From an uncultured virus (IMG/VR IMGVR_UViG_3300043775_003095) (Duplodnaviria; Heunggongvirae; Uroviricota; Caudoviricetes), in IMG/VR virus record IMGVR_UViG_3300043775_003095, positions 52,962-72,961 of that record: 20,000 bases of DNA; one strand, 5' to 3'. Each line of letters opens with the position of its first letter. Position 1 is the stretch's first letter. Below, one piece after another: positions 1,583-18,048 of this stretch. Both the position numbers and the translations under genes were made by a program. The notes below the pieces were generated by a model. That model saw only the letters and a list, made by a program, of their open reading frames with translations. It ran no database searches and was not told the origin of the DNA.

Positions 1583-2233
1583 TCAGACTCTGATCGTCTT
1601 ACATTCCCCCAGAAATTCATTCTTCGCCGATCGGAGCATGAACGCAAAATCTAGTTGAAAGATAATTCCCTCAGCCTGATGAACTTCGAGCAATTCAACA
1701 GGAATGTAATCATAATCTCGAAAAAATGTGAGATACTCAGAAATGTTCGGCGCACCTTGATTGTATTCAATCAATGGTGTTTCACAAAAAATCAATTCTG
1801 TCTTTCCCATGACTTTTTTTGCGGCAGAAAGAATATCCAATTCTGAACCTTGTGTATCAATTTTCAACAAATTGGGAACTGGAAGATCTTTATTTTCGAT
1901 CATTTTGTCTAAAGTTGTGCATGACATCTTCACTGGAGTTTTGCCATCATACCAAGTTGTTGTCTCTTTATAATATGAATCACCAGTATTGCATCCAGGA
2001 TAGAATTCAACAAACTCACGACCTTCATTGGAAAGAACATTCAAGAAGAATGAATGTCCTGTAACAATTAAATCAGACAAATAGTGAGCGTTTGCTTCAA
2101 AAAGATAAAATGATGATTCAGGCAATACCTCACGTTTCGCTTTATTACTCCATGAACCGTTGCATGCACCCACATCATAGCATATAGGAAATTGCATTCC
2201 TCTTGACTTTAAATGTTTTATAAACTCAATCAT
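1583..2233 (-). CDS. FkbM-family SAM-dependent methyltransferase
   Basis: YDVGACNG motif I, FEAN, TLD, LLKIDTQGSELDIL. Confidence 0.85.
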   Translation of the reverse strand: MIEFIKHLKSRGMQFPICYDVGACNGSWSNKAKREVLPESSFYLFEANAHYLSDLIVTGHSFFLNVLSNEGREFVEFYPGCNTGDSYYKETTTWYDGKTPVKMSCTTLDKMIENKDLPVPNLLKIDTQGSELDILSAAKKVMGKTELIFCETPLIEYNQGAPNISEYLTFFRDYDYIPVELLEVHQAEGIIFQLDFAFMLRSAKNEFLGECKTIRV

Positions 2234-3486
2234 ACAATTGCCTCGTTCATAAAGTGTTCTATAGTTTGTTCCAATTCGTTTAAATCATATTCAGGACCAA
2301 GATATATTGTTTCCAGCCCTTGTGGTTTTTTAATCAATGTTCCTTGCATTCTTTCTACGTTATAGTGATGAATGCCTAATCCGATTGAATGCGTCGCATC
2401 ATTTGCAATCGGATCAACGAAAATGTTAAATTCTGGATGCTTCTCTTTAATTATAGAAACTCCCAGAATATTTAAAGCGCAGCCACCACCAACAATCAAG
2501 TTTCTAATTTTAGAATTCTCTTTGATAAATTGTGCATGATGAAGAAAGACTTTTTCCAATGCTCTTTGAACTTCATATGCCAGATCTGCCTTTTGTTGAA
2601 ACGTTAATTCGTCAAAAAGTTCAGGATACAAATTGTAATTCAATTCTCTTCCGCAACCAAATAGATTGTTGTTTGAGTAGATGGTATCACCAACAAGAAA
2701 TGGTGGCAAGTTATTGTCTGCCTTTCCATATGCTGATAATCCCATGACCTTTCCATATCCATTCGCTCCCATCTTAAGATGGCGTGTAATCGTTTCATAC
2801 ATGTTACCAATATCCATATGAGCCGAAGCATCAAACTTATATGGAATTTTATCAAATCCAATTTTAGGATCGATCAACTCACTTATTCCACCATTCGAAC
2901 TATAAACAGGGATTGAATCTTTCACATAGACAGGACCGCACTGAGATTTCTTATAGAGATAATTTCTTCGATATCTTGAATCAATTTCTAAGATAGAAGT
3001 GTTCTCAGATCCACCAACCCCTAAATTGTTTTTAGGGTTTTGAATCACATATCCAGAACCTAGCGCATCAACAATTAAGCAAACTGCTTCGTCAAATGGA
3101 GACATATAAAATGCAGATATCGCATGACTACAATGATGAGAGTATTTGGTGAAATCATTTTTAAGATTGATTGTTCCACGACGCTCGCTTGTTTCAATTA
3201 TTTTACCAAACTCAAACATCTGAGTAATTTTATCATAGATCTGCATACAACTCTTTTCTTCTGGTAAAAGAGTATTCATGGTTTTAAATCCATGAGCAAC
3301 CAATAAATCTATTTTTTTGGTGATCTTATTGCGAATGTATTCAAATGGTTTTAAATTAAATAGCACATCATTCTTTTTACGAGTCGCTCTTTCTGCTTGC
3401 AAAAAGAAAATGAGTTTTTCATCTTCAAATAATGCTACAGAGGCATCATGTCCAAGTGTTTGAATTGCTAGTGTGTAGTAACTCAT
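2230..3486 (-). CDS. Carbamoyltransferase (CmcH/NodU/TobZ family), stand-alone N-terminal Kae1-like domain
   Basis: GHDASVA, ERATRKKND, HHCSHAISAFY.SPF, IVDALG, GKVMGLSAYG, GGCALN, DATHSIG. Confidence 0.9.
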   Translation of the reverse strand: MSYYTLAIQTLGHDASVALFEDEKLIFFLQAERATRKKNDVLFNLKPFEYIRNKITKKIDLLVAHGFKTMNTLLPEEKSCMQIYDKITQMFEFGKIIETSERRGTINLKNDFTKYSHHCSHAISAFYMSPFDEAVCLIVDALGSGYVIQNPKNNLGVGGSENTSILEIDSRYRRNYLYKKSQCGPVYVKDSIPVYSSNGGISELIDPKIGFDKIPYKFDASAHMDIGNMYETITRHLKMGANGYGKVMGLSAYGKADNNLPPFLVGDTIYSNNNLFGCGRELNYNLYPELFDELTFQQKADLAYEVQRALEKVFLHHAQFIKENSKIRNLIVGGGCALNILGVSIIKEKHPEFNIFVDPIANDATHSIGLGIHHYNVERMQGTLIKKPQGLETIYLGPEYDLNELEQTIEHFMNEAIV

Positions 3487-4043
3487 TTTGCTAGAATCGT
3501 TTTTAATTCTGGGAAGTAAATAACGTCAATATCTGAATTATGAAAAGTCTTAAGAGCATCAAATGGAGTTTCTACAATCGGCTCGCCAGCAAGATTAAAT
3601 GATGTGTTTAGAAGAAGAGGAACTCCAGTTAGATCATTGAATGCAGAGATTAAATTATAGTAATGTTCGTTTTGTTCTTTGCGAACAGTTTGAATTCTAC
3701 ACGAACCATCAACGTGAATAACTGAGGGAATCTCGTCAGTCTTATCTGCCTTCGCCGCAAAGGAATACGTCATATATGGTGCTTCTGGAATTTGAGACAT
3801 ATCAAACCAATCAGCAGCATATTCGTAAAGTATTGAAGCGGCAAGTGGGCGAAATAATTCTCTACCCTTCATTTTGTTAATGCGATCTCTGCCATCAGGA
3901 TCAACAGGAGTATAGAGCATTGATCTATTTCCTAATGCTCTTGGTCCTGCCTCTGACCTTCCTTGGAAGATTGCAACTATTTTCTTTTGCGCTAAGAGTT
4001 GAGCAACTTCAATCGGTTTAACATTAATCAACTTTCTCATCAA
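3483..4043 (-). CDS. Carbamoyltransferase (CmcH/NodU family), stand-alone C-terminal YrdC-like domain
   Basis: FQGRSEAGPRALGNRS, KGRELFRPLA, HVDGSCRIQTV, LLNTSFNLAGEPIV. Confidence 0.92.
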   Translation of the reverse strand: MMRKLINVKPIEVAQLLAQKKIVAIFQGRSEAGPRALGNRSMLYTPVDPDGRDRINKMKGRELFRPLAASILYEYAADWFDMSQIPEAPYMTYSFAAKADKTDEIPSVIHVDGSCRIQTVRKEQNEHYYNLISAFNDLTGVPLLLNTSFNLAGEPIVETPFDALKTFHNSDIDVIYFPELKTILAK

Positions 4044-5515: not shown

Positions 5516-5628
5516 GTTTTTTGTTTCGGTTGCTTCTTCTGACCGAAGATGCGTTCCCAGTTTTCATCAAATTGTTTTCTTGGCACGCTCAATGGGCGTG
5601 GTTTACTTCCTTTTCCACCAGTGCTCAT
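5506..5628 (-). CDS. Small basic hypothetical protein, 40 aa (MSTGGKGSKPRPLSVPRKQFDENWERIFGQKKQPKQKTAG)
   Basis: Translated by hand; ATGA coupling to the upstream gene; stop lies inside the 5' end of tRNA-Met. Confidence 0.6.
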   Translation of the reverse strand: MSTGGKGSKPRPLSVPRKQFDENWERIFGQKKQPKQKTAG

Positions 5629-6176
5629 AAAACTTTAAACCTATATGCTAATGTTATTCTAAATCCTTCGAAGTATCTCGTTGGTGCTTCGGCAAAATGC
5701 GCGATATATCCTTTAAACAGCAACGCAGAATTATATCTAGGATAAAATATCTTTGTTGCGTTATTTCCAACGAGACCATCTTGTTGTTTACTGTAATGTC
5801 TATTTATGAATACTGTCTGACCGCCCCATTCAATATTCCATTCTTTGTTCATATAAACAAGGAAAACATTTACATCCTCATCATGAGCATCAACATGAAC
5901 GCTTGAAGACATTGAAGTCGTTGTAGCGTTAAAGTATACGTCATTCAACGTTGCATTTAATTGAGTCGTCTGTAAAACTTTCTGAAAGAGAGTTTGAGTG
6001 AACAACTCATCATTCATTAGATTCATTCGCCAAAATGGTCTTTTTGGAGAGGATCCACTGATAGCCATTTCCCATTTTGGACGGCAAGACATGTTGTCAA
6101 TGAGTTCTAATTCTTCCTGATTAAAAACGTTTTCAAATTCTTTAATTTGTGAGAGAAAATCCACTAATTTCTCCAA
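5625..6176 (-). CDS. 2OG-Fe(II) oxygenase (prolyl-hydroxylase-like)
   Basis: HVD, WGGQTVF, distal H (IAHF), RITLAYRF. Confidence 0.85.
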   Translation of the reverse strand: MEKLVDFLSQIKEFENVFNQEELELIDNMSCRPKWEMAISGSSPKRPFWRMNLMNDELFTQTLFQKVLQTTQLNATLNDVYFNATTTSMSSSVHVDAHDEDVNVFLVYMNKEWNIEWGGQTVFINRHYSKQQDGLVGNNATKIFYPRYNSALLFKGYIAHFAEAPTRYFEGFRITLAYRFKVL

Positions 6177-7457: not shown

Positions 7458-8299
7458 TTATTTTCAACAATCTCAAAAGACTTAAACATATTTCCATCGC
7501 GAAGATCATCGTTGATATAAACTGCTTCTGTTAGAAGCCATAACTGAATACCATTTTCTTCGCAATAATTTAATAGTGCTGCGGTATCTTTCGGAAAGCA
7601 AGATCCACCAAATCCAAGTTTACCATCAGGTCCTGGAACTCTCCAGTGAGTGTGACCCAAACGTTTATCCAGAACAGCGAGTTCAGAGATCTTGTTATAA
7701 TCAACATCAATTGAATCACACAAAGTTTTAAATTCGTTTGCAAAGGTGACTTTAGTTGCCAAGAAACAGTTTGCAAGATATTTAAAGAGTTCTGCTTCTT
7801 TTGTCGTTCTTTGAATCACATGCGCAACATTATCAACTTTGCTATTAAATTCATAATAAAGCTGAGTCATGACTGTTGCGATACCTGGATCATCTGCTCC
7901 AATCACAATGAGTGGTTGAGTTCGAAAATCATTATATGCCTTTGCTTCTGTCAAAAACTCTGGATTAAATCCGATCGTCATCTGAAAATCAGATGCAAGA
8001 CGTTCAGTTGTTCCTGGAGTTACAGTTGACTTAATGACAACATACTTGCGGCGATCAACTTGAGCAATGTCGTCAATCACAGAACCAACAATGCTGATGT
8101 CGCATGAACCATCTTGTCTACTTGGTGTTGGAACGCAAACAAAAATAATGTCGGATTTATCAACAAATTCTCGAAATGTTGCAACAGTGCGTTTTGTTTC
8201 ATCCGTATCCCAAACCAGTGTATTGAAAACATCTTTAAAATTTTCATACATGGCACCACCAACAAATCCTTTACCAATAATTCCCACAGTGTAACTCAT
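7454..8299 (-). CDS. UDP-glucose/GDP-mannose 6-dehydrogenase family protein (short form)
   Basis: GKGFVG Rossmann motif, VCVPTP, IKSTV.PGTT, NPEFL, KYLAN, GFGGSCFPKD with catalytic Cys. Confidence 0.9.
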   Translation of the reverse strand: MSYTVGIIGKGFVGGAMYENFKDVFNTLVWDTDETKRTVATFREFVDKSDIIFVCVPTPSRQDGSCDISIVGSVIDDIAQVDRRKYVVIKSTVTPGTTERLASDFQMTIGFNPEFLTEAKAYNDFRTQPLIVIGADDPGIATVMTQLYYEFNSKVDNVAHVIQRTTKEAELFKYLANCFLATKVTFANEFKTLCDSIDVDYNKISELAVLDKRLGHTHWRVPGPDGKLGFGGSCFPKDTAALLNYCEENGIQLWLLTEAVYINDDLRDGNMFKSFEIVENK

Positions 8300-8919
8300 G
8301 TTGATTCCTCAGTTTTTTTATATAATTTAAAAGCCATTGAAATTCGCATTCCGCTAAAATCTTTAGTTGGACCAAATGCAAAGTGAATTATGTTTGCTGG
8401 AAAGAATACGCACAAATTTGGCATTGGAAACACTGTTACATGTTTACTTTTATCCAGCACTATGGTTTCATTTGTATCAGGATCAATGTAGCGATCGAAT
8501 GCAACGAACTGCCCGCCCCATCTAAAATCCCAATATGGGTTTAGAAACCAAATGAATGTGTATGCATTTTCAATTTCACTATCGAAATGCGGATCTCCAT
8601 CTTGACACGCAGTTTGTCCGTTCAGCAATAAATGATTTAATTCTAAAGTTGGTTCGCCTGTAATTTCTCTGATACGATTTAAACATACCGTATTGAAAAA
8701 TTCTTCTTTGTGCCACATTCTACCTGCACCCCAAAATCGACGGATAGTGGGTGAGTATGATTCAATATTTGGAGAAACCCAATCATTATCAATGCCATCT
8801 TTTTGATTGCTTTGATTAGATTTCCATCTCGCCTTTGAAACCCAAGACATCCCCTCATTAAATTCTTCTTGAGAAAATGCGTTTTCGTAAATTTTAACTT
8901 GATCTAATACTGTCTTCAT
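8296..8919 (-). CDS. 2OG-Fe(II) oxygenase (prolyl-hydroxylase-like)
   Basis: PHFD, WGGQF, IIHF, RISMAFK. Confidence 0.85.
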   Translation of the reverse strand: MKTVLDQVKIYENAFSQEEFNEGMSWVSKARWKSNQSNQKDGIDNDWVSPNIESYSPTIRRFWGAGRMWHKEEFFNTVCLNRIREITGEPTLELNHLLLNGQTACQDGDPHFDSEIENAYTFIWFLNPYWDFRWGGQFVAFDRYIDPDTNETIVLDKSKHVTVFPMPNLCVFFPANIIHFAFGPTKDFSGMRISMAFKLYKKTEEST

Positions 8920-11355: not shown

Positions 11356-11901
11356 TTATATTTCTTTCAAATGATATGCGATTGTGTACCTCATCTCATA
11401 AAAATCTCTACTTGGAGAACTTCCAAAGTGGACCATATTTGACGGAAAAAATACTGCAGTGTTCGGTATCGGATATACACTGTAAACACTATCGCTATTC
11501 ATCACTTCTTCTGAATCTTCGTACCTATATCTATCAAAAAAGATTGTTTGACCGCCCCATTGATAGTCCCATGTTTTATTCGCGTAAAGAATAAAAGTGT
11601 AAGTATCTGTTGATTCACTATCAACATGAGGAGCACCATCTTGTAATGTTGATTGAGCGTTGGCAAGTATGCTTGTTGTGATAAATTTTTTTCCTGTTAA
11701 CTCCTCAACAACGGAAAACACTTTCTTATTGAAGAAAGGTTCATCATCTAAACGCATCCCCCAAAATACTTTATGAGGACTATATTTGGGATCACTAACG
11801 CTCAACGCCCATTTGGGTTGTCTGAGATAACGATCGAGAATATCAAACGTCTCGGTATCTAAAACATCTTTGTATTGTTTAATTTTTTGTATGAATTCCA
11901 T
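11356..11901 (-). CDS. 2OG-Fe(II) oxygenase (prolyl-hydroxylase-like)
   Basis: PHVD, WGGQTIF, MVHF, RYTIAY. Confidence 0.85.
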   Translation of the reverse strand: MEFIQKIKQYKDVLDTETFDILDRYLRQPKWALSVSDPKYSPHKVFWGMRLDDEPFFNKKVFSVVEELTGKKFITTSILANAQSTLQDGAPHVDSESTDTYTFILYANKTWDYQWGGQTIFFDRYRYEDSEEVMNSDSVYSVYPIPNTAVFFPSNMVHFGSSPSRDFYEMRYTIAYHLKEI

Positions 11902-17194: not shown

Positions 17195-17280
17195 TGGTGG
17201 GTGAAGTAGGATTCGAACCTACTCAGCCAATGGCAGCGGATTTACAGTCCGACGCGACTCTCCAACTTCGCCGTTCACCC
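17195..17280 (-). tRNA. tRNA-Tyr(GTA)
   Basis: Loop CTGTAAA, variable arm, CCA. Confidence 0.93.
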
Positions 17281-17284
17281 AATA

Positions 17285-17358
17285 TGGCTGAGGAGCATGG
17301 ATTCGAACCACGATAAGCAGGATCAAAACCTGCTGTCCTGCCGTTAGACGACTCCTCA
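17285..17358 (-). tRNA. tRNA-Gln(TTG)
   Basis: GCAGG-TTTTGAT-CCTGC; U1:A72; CCA. Confidence 0.93.
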
Positions 17359-17366
17359 AAATAAGT

Positions 17367-17441
17367 GCTGGATGAGACAACTGGGTTTGCTCGTTCTGGG
17401 CATCCGATGAAGGCGACACATTACTGCTCGCCACATCCAGC
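17367..17441 (-). ncRNA. Unassigned tRNA-sized structured RNA
   Basis: 8-bp closing stem GCTGGATG/CATCCAGC; internal GGCGA/TCGCC hairpin capped by a GUAA (GNRA) loop. Confidence 0.5.
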
Positions 17442-17459
17442 GATCCTAAATTAGTTGCT

Positions 17460-17629
17460 TCCTCTTTGCGGCGGTTTTTGTCATCCCACCACAAACACTT
17501 ATGTGGTATCCGCATCCCGACCAAAGAGGATTCTCGCATTGCCAGCGCCAGTTCGGTTAGACTGGAACCACCCTGTGGCGATCAAGCCACTTCTCATCGT
17601 CTGGGTAGACTAGCCATTGATTAGATGGC
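17460..17629 (-). ncRNA. Unassigned multi-hairpin, potentially pseudoknotted RNA (~170 nt)
   Basis: Five short hairpins plus a domain closed by TCCTCTTTG/CAAAGAGGA; lies between tRNA-Ala and tRNA-Gln. Confidence 0.6.
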
Positions 17630-17635
17630 ACGTTT

Positions 17636-17709
17636 TGGTGGACCGTCGGAGAATCAAACTCCGATCTTCGCCGTGCAAGGGCGACGTAATCTCATTATAC
17701 CAACAGCCC
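17636..17709 (-). tRNA. tRNA-Ala(TGC)
   Basis: TCGCC-CTTGCAC-GGCGA; G3:U70; CCA; atypical D- and T-loops. Confidence 0.9.
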
Positions 17710-17714
17710 AAAAA

Positions 17715-17882
17715 TGGCGTGGGCTATCGTTCGCGAATTCTCACGCTACTAGATTATTCTTATCTATGCCCCCACGCAACATAGAATGCATTCCGTTCAA
17801 TCTCATATATCGTTGGTGCTATTCAAACGGAAAAGTCTTTGCACCGACGGATGACTTACAGTGAATTCCCTGCAAGCACCAA
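17715..17882 (-). ncRNA. Unassigned structured RNA(s): two junction modules (17813-17882 and 17715-17777)
   Basis: Closing stems TTGGTGCT/AGCACCAA and GCGTGGG/CCCACGC, each enclosing two hairpins. Confidence 0.5.
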
Positions 17883-17884
17883 GA

Positions 17885-17974: not shown

Positions 17975-18048
17975 TGGTAGGACTGGAGGGTAACGCTCCC
18001 TCTTTTACGGATTAAAAGTCCGTTACATCACTTTAATGTTTCAGTCCC
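17975..18048 (-). tRNA. tRNA-Lys(TTT), atypical
   Basis: ACGGA-CTTTTAA-TCCGT; all stems pair; T-loop AGCGTTA, A8; CCA. Confidence 0.82.

What the first reader, a model, noticed from the sequence alone, without database searches (positions are those of the whole stretch)
17460..17629. Ornate ~170-nt non-tRNA RNA with two potential pseudoknots inside the tRNA operon
Seen: most tRNAs here are 3-25 nt apart, but a 277-nt GC-richer gap separates tRNA-Ala and tRNA-Gln. On the minus strand it reads as consecutive hairpins GCCAT/ATGGC, GTCT/AGAC, GTGGC/GCCAC, CCAGT/ACTGG and CGC/GCG. These are followed by a domain closed by TCCTCTTTG/CAAAGAGGA that contains GCGG/CCGC and TACCACA/TGTGGTG. Loop ACCC can pair with downstream GGGT, and loop CCGA with downstream TCGG. 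Known: phage tRNA clusters carry stable non-tRNA RNAs (T4 species C/D; GOLLD is tRNA-associated). Inference: a co-transcribed structured RNA (ribozyme, decoy or anti-defence RNA) that I cannot assign to a family.
Basis: partly seen in the sequence, partly recalled or inferred. Interest (0 to 1): 0.8.

Follow-up and report, generated by a model that had tools for sequence, protein, structure and literature searches.

The report
Knotted RNA gene among phage tRNAs
The long gap between two tRNA genes of this uncultured T4-like phage holds a real gene for an intricately knotted, roughly 180-base non-coding RNA of a widespread phage family that no RNA catalogue lists, followed by a second small folded RNA; what they do is still unknown.

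Summary
The 277-nt gap (17359-17635, minus strand) between tRNA-Ala and tRNA-Gln contains two separable RNA modules.

All the named hairpins exist. Seven helices (P1-P7) and the ACCC/GGGU pseudoknot are kept by compensatory changes in 53 distinct relatives: 92% of cells paired, with 0 of 500 shuffles reaching the observed covariation.

- I found two further contacts: a kissing loop between the first and third hairpins, and a GGU/ACC loop pseudoknot.
Its 3' strand is used by a covarying helix.

No Rfam family matches, and neither T4 rnaC/rnaD nor any cultured phage does. Carriers are about 172-kb T4-like phages with one copy each. In 21 of 50 relatives the RNA starts flush after a tRNA's CCA. 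In others it stands alone, with promoter-like boxes upstream and a U-run downstream.

Module B (17363-17442) is an independent 80-nt three-way-junction RNA.

Function is untested. I think it is most likely a stable trans-acting RNA cut out of the tRNA transcript. A tRNA-releasing ribozyme or a self-assembling RNA remain possible.

This scan noted the same family earlier on other DNA.

The parts
17636..17709 (-). tRNA-Ala(UGC) with encoded CCA. Module A starts at the next base.
   Evidence: ARAGORN; Rfam tRNA 54.9 bits.
17456..17635 (-). Module A: the knotted RNA, about 180 nt. RNA position n corresponds to window coordinate 17636-n.
   Evidence: Covariance model R1 scores 180.8 bits, E 4e-64, and matches 54 of 54 sources at E<=1e-10. 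Alignments A2 and A4.
17613..17629 (-). P1 hairpin GCCAU/AUGGC with loop CUAAUCA.
   Evidence: 5 of 5 pairs changed on both sides; 97% of cells paired (helix 1).
17599..17610 (-). P2 hairpin GUCU/AGAC with loop ACCC.
   Evidence: 99.1% of cells paired; GC25/CG20 and CG29/GC18/AU6 at two pairs (helix 3).
17603..17606 (-). PK1 5' strand: ACCC in the P2 loop.
   Evidence: Pairs with 17570-17573. AU47->GC5 and CG47->UA5; 100% paired (helix 4).
17570..17573 (-). PK1 3' strand: GGGU just after P3.
   Evidence: helix 4.
17575..17590 (-). P3 hairpin GUGGC/GCCAC with loop UUGAUC.
   Evidence: 5 of 5 pairs changed on both sides. 75% of cells paired because the register varies among rows (helix 5).
17618..17621 (-). 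Kissing-loop strand AUCA in the P1 loop.
   Evidence: Pairs with UGAU at 17581-17584. AU30/GC18/GU3, UA35/CG10, CG26/GC9 (helix 2). Found by a mutual-information scan.
17581..17584 (-). Kissing-loop strand UGAU in the P3 loop.
17566..17569 (-). PK3 5' strand: GGUU between PK1 and P4.
   Evidence: Pairs with AACC in the P4 loop. GC41/CG5, GC41/UA3, UA41; the fourth pair is weak (helix 6).
17548..17565 (-). P4 hairpin CCAGU/ACUGG with loop CUAACCGA (ACC invariant in most rows). PK3 3' strand lies at 17555-17558.
   Evidence: 100% of cells paired; 3 pairs changed on both sides (helix 7).
17535..17547 (-). P5 hairpin CGC/GCG with the invariant loop UGGCAAU, which contains a GCAA (GNRA-type) tetranucleotide.
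   Evidence: Loop and stem are identical in 52-53 of 53 rows. One row has CGU/ACG, which is compensatory (helix 8).
17460..17530 (-). Long arm: P6 (UCCUCUUUG/CAAAGAGGA), then CG/CG, then P7 (GCGG/CCGC), then a variable tip.
   Evidence: 92.7% of cells paired; 11 of 15 pairs changed on both sides. Fold z-score -3.45.
17488..17507 (-). Tip hairpin ACCACA/UGUGGU, specific to the window's lineage. Most relatives carry a different tip (GGUGGAAGG...CUAUAAUUACC, with a UGAUG/UGAUG internal loop).
   Evidence: Alignment A2 and alignment print-out.
17456..17459 (-). Conserved single-stranded 3' tail AGCA (AAGCA or AGAGCA across the family).
17363..17442 (-). Module B: an independent 80-nt three-way-junction RNA lying directly before tRNA-Gln.
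   Evidence: 9 distinct copies; 98.8% of cells paired; 5 pairs with compensatory changes. It occurs without module A in L330, L333, L334 and L340.
17285..17358 (-). tRNA-Gln(UUG), the downstream boundary of the gap.

Best explanation
Module A is the gene for a discrete, stable non-coding RNA of an uncatalogued family carried once per genome by T4-like phages.

Shown. The RNA folds into a compact, multiply knotted 5' domain. Hairpins P1-P5 are tied together by a P1-P3 kissing loop, a P2-loop pseudoknot and a P4-loop pseudoknot. A long coaxial arm (P6-P7) follows, with a freely variable tip and a short conserved single-stranded tail.

Inferred. In this phage the RNA is transcribed with the tRNAs. 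The host's tRNA-processing enzymes release it: trimming at the CCA of tRNA-Ala on one side, and RNase P cutting at the next tRNA on the other. This is what is assumed for the T4 small RNAs C and D. The RNA then acts in trans. Its invariant unpaired nucleotides (loop UGGCAAU, junction GAUGAGAA, GUCG, tail AGCA) would form a fixed surface that binds a conserved partner, probably a protein or RNA of the tRNA or translation machinery or a host nuclease that attacks it. In that case it would act as a scaffold or decoy. The partner and the effect are not known.
For: The family and fold are real.
- 54 of 54 sources match the model at E<=1e-10.
- Covariation statistics support the helices.
- The mutual-information scan recovers the helices and finds the kissing loop without prior assumption.

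There is one copy per record in 5 of 5 records. Three of these are 100% complete genomes of 172-175 kb, and all three encode a Gp23 capsid.

The RNA looks like an independent unit rather than an appendage of one tRNA.
- The tRNA lying flush upstream (21 of 50 loci) is any of nine species: Gly 4, Ala 4, Cys 4, Ser 2, Pro 2, Met 2, Arg, Asp, Asn.
- 21 of 50 loci have no upstream tRNA in the DNA held.
- Several of those have sigma-70-like boxes that would start transcription at or a few bases before the same 5' nucleotides (L159: TTGACA-17-TATAAT; L070: TTGACG-17-TAGAAT), and a U-run after the tail.

The tip of the arm varies from 7 nt to more than 100 nt while the core stays invariant. This is typical of an RNA whose core is the functional surface.

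Contigs from RNA libraries of relatives cover module A and join it to module B and to an upstream tRNA. This is weak evidence, because DNA may be present in such libraries.

Precedent: T4 RNAs C and D lie in the T4 tRNA cluster, and their roles are unknown (PMC3014915, passage read).
Against: - No experiment, and no read-level RNA data. Only contigs were available, so ends, stability and abundance are not shown.
- No partner is identified, and there is no conserved neighbouring protein gene.
- The processing route is inferred from the position alone.
- The simple consensus scan did not call a promoter or terminator at the standalone copies L052, L061 and L312. The promoter-like boxes I cite were read by eye in other loci.
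- The nested-fold energy of the 5' domain is no better than that of shuffled sequences (z -0.24).
Confidence: 0.55

Rival explanations
1. Module A is a self-cleaving ribozyme that cuts at its own 5' edge and frees the CCA end of the preceding tRNA. This would be a larger, unrelated analogue of the HDV-like theta ribozymes of gut phages.
For: - The element begins at the base after CCA (distance -1 to +4) in 21 of 50 relatives and in the window.
- It has a compact multi-pseudoknot core with invariant unpaired nucleotides.
- Theta ribozymes sit next to phage tRNAs and are proposed to process 3' trailers (PMC10879173, passages read).
Against: - 21 of 50 loci have no upstream tRNA in the DNA held, and 8 have other sequence of 44-162 nt in between.
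- No Rfam ribozyme family matches in the window or in 18 relatives.
- The 5' nucleotides are not part of any supported helix.
- The tRNAs here encode CCA, whereas only 4.5% of theta-associated tRNAs do.
- RNA-library contigs from two studies run across the tRNA/module A junction (records 1 and 2). This is weak evidence.
Confidence: 0.12
2. Module A is a self-assembling RNA. In this reading the complementary P1 and P3 loops pair between molecules, head to tail, and build rings, cages or filaments, as shown for other phage-associated RNAs.
For: - Covariation cannot tell an intramolecular kissing loop from an intermolecular one.
- In one subgroup both loops carry the same GUAGCA sequence.
- manA RNA of cyanophages assembles through intermolecular kissing loops into pentamers and 60-mers (bioRxiv 10.64898/2026.07.01.735769, passages read).
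- GOLLD lies near tRNA clusters and forms quaternary assemblies (PMC12990946, passage read).
Against: - P1 and P3 are separated only by the short P2 hairpin, which PK1 pins next to P3, so an intramolecular kiss is sterically plausible.
- No second pair of complementary loops is seen.
- manA itself is absent from 5 of 5 carrier records searched, though that control search rang nowhere.
Confidence: 0.15
3. Module A is a cis-acting regulator, such as a riboswitch, a T-box-like tRNA sensor or an attenuator, that controls what is transcribed downstream.
For: - Standalone copies are followed by a U-run and then an ORF with a ribosome-binding site (L046, L060, L118, L090, L160).
- The invariant loop UGGCAAU contains UGG and GGC-A. 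These could in principle pair with a tRNA CCA end or with a GCC anticodon. This is my own reading and is untested.
Against: - The downstream genes differ among loci: tRNAs of many kinds, a MazG-like ORF, an unknown ORF.
- The U-run lies 6-7 nt beyond the last helix, and no alternative terminator or antiterminator pairing is conserved.
- Most copies lie between two tRNA genes.
Confidence: 0.07
4. The gap is not a functional RNA. It is a decayed tRNA, a protein-coding remnant or a chance set of hairpins.
For: Whole-gap fold z is -1.06 and 5' domain z is -0.24. A 106-aa ORF (17219-17539, minus strand) overlaps the gap.
Against: - There is covariation in 53 distinct relatives.
- ARAGORN and the Rfam tRNA model find no tRNA in the gap.
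- The ORF runs through tRNA-Gln and tRNA-Tyr and has no PHROG match (protein 25).
Confidence: 0.02

Closest known systems
Phage T4 small stable RNAs C and D (rnaC 139 nt, rnaD 119 nt; species 1 and 2)
   Same: Both are non-tRNA RNAs encoded on the tRNA strand inside the tRNA cluster of a T4-type phage, flush with a tRNA (T4 record). The role of the T4 RNAs is unknown (PMC3014915).
   Different: There is no sequence or structure match: model R1 scores at most 4.2 bits (E 0.47) anywhere in the T4 tRNA region with filters off. Module A is longer and is knotted by three tertiary pairings.
HDV-like theta ribozymes next to phage tRNAs (PMC10879173)
   Same: Both are pseudoknotted RNAs placed directly after a phage tRNA gene.
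   Different: Theta ribozymes are minimal HDV-like folds, and only 4.5% of their tRNAs encode CCA. Module A is about 180 nt, has a different topology and follows CCA-encoding tRNAs. Many copies have no tRNA upstream. No HDV-family hit was found.
GOLLD and ROOL large ornate RNAs; manA RNA of cyanophages
   Same: All are ornate RNAs borne by phages or prophages. GOLLD lies near tRNA clusters (PMC12990946). All are rich in tertiary contacts and have unknown biological function.
   Different: They are much larger: by recall, roughly 600-800 nt for ROOL and GOLLD. None of their Rfam models matches. manA (RF01745) was not found in 5 of 5 carrier records. Multimerisation of module A is untested.
wcaG RNA motif (RF01761)
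   Same: It gives a weak local resemblance in the window's arm tip: GUGGUG-GGAUGA and UGGCGAGC, at 18.3 bits. By recall, wcaG is found in cyanophages and marine metagenomes.
   Different: The score is far below the gathering score of 42. The match spans the lineage-specific tip of module A and part of module B, and it is absent from 18 of 18 other members scanned. It is a chance match.

Membership tests
Any Rfam 15 family (4227 models) | Score at or above the family's gathering threshold | tested here: not met
   In the window only tRNAs pass. In the gap at E<=10 the only hit is wcaG at 18.3 bits against 42. In 18 relatives every hit lies on a tRNA gene.
tRNA or tRNA-like gene | Cloverleaf recognised by ARAGORN or Rfam RF00005 | tested here: not met
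   Neither tool finds a tRNA between 17359 and 17635.
T4 rnaC / rnaD | Sequence and structure similarity to the T4 genes | tested here: not met
   The best R1 hit in the T4 region 68000-76000 is 4.2 bits, E 0.47, with filters off.
T4 rnaC / rnaD | Location within the tRNA cluster of a T4-type phage, on the same strand as the tRNAs | tested here: met
   Gp23 found in 3 of 3 complete carrier genomes.
Theta / HDV-like ribozyme | Nested double pseudoknot whose P1 starts at the cleavage site (+1); size about 50-100 nt | tested here: not met
   Positions 1-6 are in no supported helix. The topology is P1, P2, P3 plus a kissing loop and PK1. Length is 154-268 nt. No HDV-family hit.
Theta / HDV-like ribozyme | Self-cleavage | not testable with these tools
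   This needs an in vitro transcription and cleavage assay.
GOLLD / ROOL / manA | Match to the family's covariance model | tested here: not met
   manA was sought in 5 carrier records with 0 matches, but the control genomes did not ring either.
The uncatalogued knotted phage RNA family defined here (model R1) | P1-P7 with a P1-P3 kissing loop, PK1 and the invariant loop UGGCAAU | tested here: met
   The window scores 180.8 bits, E 4e-64, over the full model length 1-192. All helices are present.

The most novel reading that the evidence does not exclude
Module A is a new class of natural ribozyme, or tRNA-directed RNA machine. In this reading the knotted 5' domain, with its invariant UGGCAAU loop and GAUGAGAA junction, grips the CCA end or another part of a tRNA and cuts or otherwise acts on it. 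For example, it could cleave exactly after the CCA of the tRNA it follows, giving phage tRNA arrays a maturation step that does not depend on the host.
Probability: 0.1. Interest if true: 0.9.

Novelty: new variant of a known kind. Interest (0 to 1): 0.72.

Why it matters
Phage tRNA arrays are now seen as tools for keeping translation going when hosts destroy tRNAs. The non-tRNA RNAs embedded in them have been unexplained since T4 RNAs C and D were described. Here one such RNA turns out to be a widespread and very conserved family with an unusually dense set of tertiary contacts: a kissing loop and two pseudoknots within about 100 nt.

That makes the problem directly testable:
- a defined 180-nt molecule for structure determination;
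- clear mutate-and-rescue targets;
- three concrete functional hypotheses (decoy or scaffold, tRNA-releasing ribozyme, self-assembly).

The result also shows that the "gaps" in these arrays are rows of separable RNA modules (A, B and C here), which annotation pipelines currently leave blank.

Tried and rejected
- **wcaG membership.** The single sub-threshold hit was not repeated in 18 relatives.
- **manA in the carrier genomes.** 0 of 5 records matched, and the control genomes were also silent.
- **T4 rnaC/rnaD homology.** No match.
- **Cultured-phage relatives.** blastn of the gap plus flanks found only tRNA matches. Module A alone found two 26-nt chance matches at E 0.6.
- **Bacterial genomes.** Only 1 of 120 pattern hits was a true member: L228, on a 5.9-kb contig of a Bacteroidota bin, probably phage DNA.
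Not supported.
- **The long-range GAUGAGA/UCUCAUC helix in the whole-gap MFE fold**. It joins modules A and B, is not kept in L028, and is impossible in loci that have only one module.
- **A 5'-leader helix, CGU with AUG of the GAUGAGAA junction.** The apparent G-U/C-A covariation is a single lineage split with non-standard pairs.
- **Pairing of the 3' tail with the arm tip.** It is perfect in L090 only and does not covary (read).
- **The 106-aa ORF.** No PHROG match, and it overlaps two tRNAs.
- **Consensus promoter/terminator scan at standalone copies.** Nothing on the right strand at L052, L061 or L312.
- **Supplements of PMC10690425** searched for the core motif. No occurrence, but three files could not be searched, so I cannot tell whether that catalogue holds a fragment of this family.
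- **RNA-library contigs**. The parts without cover are uninformative, and no read-level ends are available.
- **A first P7 register that was off by one** (helix 9). Corrected.

Full report
**Setting.** The window is the last 20 kb of a 72,961-bp IMG/VR virus record. Its genes are those of a T4-like cyanophage-type virus: a split carbamoyltransferase, several 2OG-Fe(II) oxygenases, endonuclease V-like genes and an HNH endonuclease. An identical copy of the region lies in a 172,991-bp record rated 100% complete, and that record encodes a Gp23 major capsid protein. The minus strand of the window carries 16 ARAGORN tRNAs, plus one more seen only by Rfam.

**The observation.** tRNA-Ala (17636-17709) and tRNA-Gln (17285-17358) are 277 nt apart, while most neighbouring tRNAs are 3-6 nt apart. 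Nested-fold energy is not persuasive: the z-score is -1.06 for the gap, -0.24 for the first 105 nt and -3.45 for the arm. The comparative evidence overrides it, and pseudoknots are invisible to that calculation.

**Relatives.** Exact-pattern scans of IMG/VR followed by blastn and nhmmer gave 41 distinct homologues. One further scan of metagenome contigs added 13. A covariance model built from 24 of them (A2, R1) matches all 54 sources at E<=1e-10, and the window scores 180.8 bits.

The comparison shows at once that the gap is two modules.
- Module A is the first 180 nt or so (17456-17635). It occurs in many contexts.
- Module B is the last 80 nt or so (17363-17442). It occurs on its own, directly between a tRNA and tRNA-Gln, in other phages.

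**Structure of module A.** RNA position n corresponds to window coordinate 17636-n. On 53 distinct rows the 5' domain (P1 7-23, P2 26-37, P3 46-61, P4 71-88, P5 89-101, plus three tertiary pairings) has 92.0% of cells paired. The figure is 77.2% in shuffles and 26-44% when partners are slid by 1-3 columns. 24 of 34 pairs changed on both sides, and 0 of 500 shuffles reach the covariation score. The arm has 92.7% paired, with 11 of 15 pairs changed on both sides. It consists of P6 106-114/168-176, C117-G167 and G118-C166, and P7 123-126/162-165. G-U pairs such as UG:28 in P2 exist only on the minus-strand reading, which fixes the strand.

In a five-member sublineage it becomes GUCC/GGAC, with both changed pairs staying complementary (helix 4). 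That is one evolutionary event, not five.

An unbiased mutual-information scan recovered the helices. This contact has repeated independent changes: AU30/GC18/GU3, UA35/CG10 and CG26/GC9 (helix 2). Other members have AACG/CGUU, GUCA/UGAC, UCAU/AUGA or GCCA/UGGU.

A third contact, GGU(U) 67-70 with (A)ACC 78-81 in the P4 loop, is paired in 41-46 rows. It is re-written to C-G and U-A in the same sublineage (helix 6), so it is supported less independently.

It also competes with C117-G167, which changes to U-A in L119 (CG 23, UA 1). L032, outside that alignment, shows the same U and A in the sequences printed. I consider this pseudoknot unsupported.

The P5 loop UGGCAAU is identical in all rows, even where its stem changed (helix 8).

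The arm tip is free to vary: a 7-nt loop in L049, the window's own ACCACA hairpin, or inserts of more than 100 nt.

**What it is not.**
- No Rfam family reaches threshold.
- The one weak hit in the gap, wcaG at 18.3 bits, straddles the lineage-specific tip and module B. It is absent from 18 of 18 other members scanned, and all of their hits lie on tRNAs.
- ARAGORN and the tRNA model find nothing in the gap.
- T4's rnaC and rnaD sit in an equivalent place, but R1 scores at most 4.2 bits there.
- No cultured phage in the 50,697-record collection has a detectable match.
- Of 120 pattern hits in bacterial and archaeal genomes, one is real, on a 5.9-kb contig of a metagenome bin. That scan was row-capped.

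The family therefore appears to be phage-borne and uncultured, within the limits of these capped, exact-pattern scans.

**Context.** There is one copy per record in 5 of 5 records searched whole.

I examined 50 relatives. Three near-duplicates (L060, L186, L326) were left out. The element starts -1 to +4 nt after a tRNA in 21 of them, nearly always right after an encoded CCA. The tRNA is of nine different species. In 8 relatives another 44-162 nt intervene, and in 21 no tRNA lies upstream within the DNA held.

Several of the stand-alone copies have sigma-70-like boxes placed to start transcription at or just before the same RAAC 5' end (L159, L070, L089, L069; read by eye). They also have a U-run after the AGAGCA tail. 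The simple consensus scan did not call sites at three other copies. The genes downstream differ among loci.

**Expression.** Eighteen RNA-library runs share words with the stretch. Four were laid.
- A 230-nt contig covers 17400-17629, that is module A through into module B.
- Two contigs from two studies run from module A across the junction into a different upstream tRNA.

These are contigs of relatives in libraries that may contain DNA. They show compatibility with co-transcription and nothing about ends or abundance.

**Mechanism.** What is shown is a discrete, strongly constrained, knotted fold with an invariant unpaired surface, carried once per genome and produced either from a tRNA polycistron or from its own unit.

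The most economical inference (about 0.55) is a stable trans-acting RNA. It would be released by the tRNA-processing machinery, as assumed for T4 RNAs C and D, and would bind a conserved partner as a scaffold or decoy.

A self-cleaving ribozyme that frees the preceding CCA end is attractive because of the flush junction and the precedent of theta ribozymes (PMC10879173). It is weakened by the many copies without an upstream tRNA, the lack of any helix at the 5' end, the CCA-encoding tRNAs and the junction-spanning RNA contigs.

Self-assembly through an intermolecular P1-P3 kiss cannot be excluded by covariation. It has a precedent in manA and GOLLD.

A cis-regulatory role fits poorly with the varied downstream genes.

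**Other modules.** Module B (80 nt) is a three-way junction: an 8-bp closing stem and two hairpins with 11-nt loops. 98.8% of cells are paired and five pairs changed compensatorily in nine distinct copies. The 175-nt gap between tRNA-Asn and tRNA-Ala (17710-17884) is also conserved in seven loci, with 6 of 24 predicted pairs changed compensatorily. The operon is thus a row of tRNAs interleaved with separable folded RNAs.

**Earlier notes of this scan** describe what appears to be the same family on other DNA, with the same conclusion: real, knotted, uncatalogued, function unknown. I re-derived the fold independently here. One note's lead that the family travels with manA was not borne out in the five records I searched.

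**In print.** I found no description of this family in four full-text searches:
- (structured RNA, pseudoknot, tRNA cluster, bacteriophage);
- (manA RNA, wcaG RNA, cryo-EM);
- (theta ribozyme, HDV-like, tRNA, bacteriophage);
- (rnaC, rnaD, bacteriophage T4, stable RNA).

The IMG/VR catalogue of candidate structured RNAs (PMC10690425, passages read) reports motifs of 29-151 nt and could hold a fragment. The supplement files I could search did not contain the core motif, and three files were not searchable.

Noticed in passing
window 17363-17442 (-): Module B is an independent 80-nt three-way-junction RNA immediately 5' of tRNA-Gln. It has an 8-bp closing stem (GCUGGAUG/CAUCCAGC) and two hairpins with 11-nt loops. 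It is found without module A in other phages, is not in Rfam and is not a tRNA.
   Followed up: partly
window 17710-17884 (-): The 175-nt gap between tRNA-Asn and tRNA-Ala is also conserved in 7 loci. RNAalifold predicts 24 pairs, 6 of them with compensatory changes. Its 3' part is a 7-bp stem GCGUGGG/CCCACGC. It is probably a third non-tRNA RNA module.
   Followed up: partly
L032 and L040 (relatives), just after tRNA-Ala: A small conserved hairpin (GCCCGAAGCC...GCUUCGGC with loop UCUGCAGCAAUGUAC) precedes module A or B in some relatives. It may be a fourth module.
   Followed up: no
window 17978-18048 (-): Rfam's tRNA model finds a 17th tRNA (43.7 bits) that ARAGORN did not report.
   Followed up: no
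window 2230-4043 (-): The Nol-like carbamoyltransferase is split into two adjacent ORFs (418 aa and 186 aa) that match the N- and C-terminal parts of one PHROG profile.
   Followed up: no
window 5625-6176, 8296-8919, 11356-11901 (-): Three ORFs all match the 'DNA endonuclease V' PHROG (phrog_274), and three neighbouring ORFs match 2OG-Fe(II) oxygenase. This is a paralogue-rich region interleaved with single tRNAs.
   Followed up: no
L046, L060, L118; L090 (L312), L160: Stand-alone copies of module A are followed after a U-run by recurring small ORFs. One family begins MEKVIENGQVAVIYSPGFGAGWYTWN. The other, beginning MNEKQEEVLRIAQEECAE, looks MazG-like.
   Followed up: no
module A arm, most relatives (e.g. 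L045, L051): The common arm tip carries a symmetric UGAUG/UGAUG internal loop (tandem G-A type) and a conserved GGNUGGAAGG / CUAUAAUUACC internal loop with a non-Watson-Crick covariation (G-A 20, A-G 10). The window's lineage has replaced this tip.
   Followed up: partly
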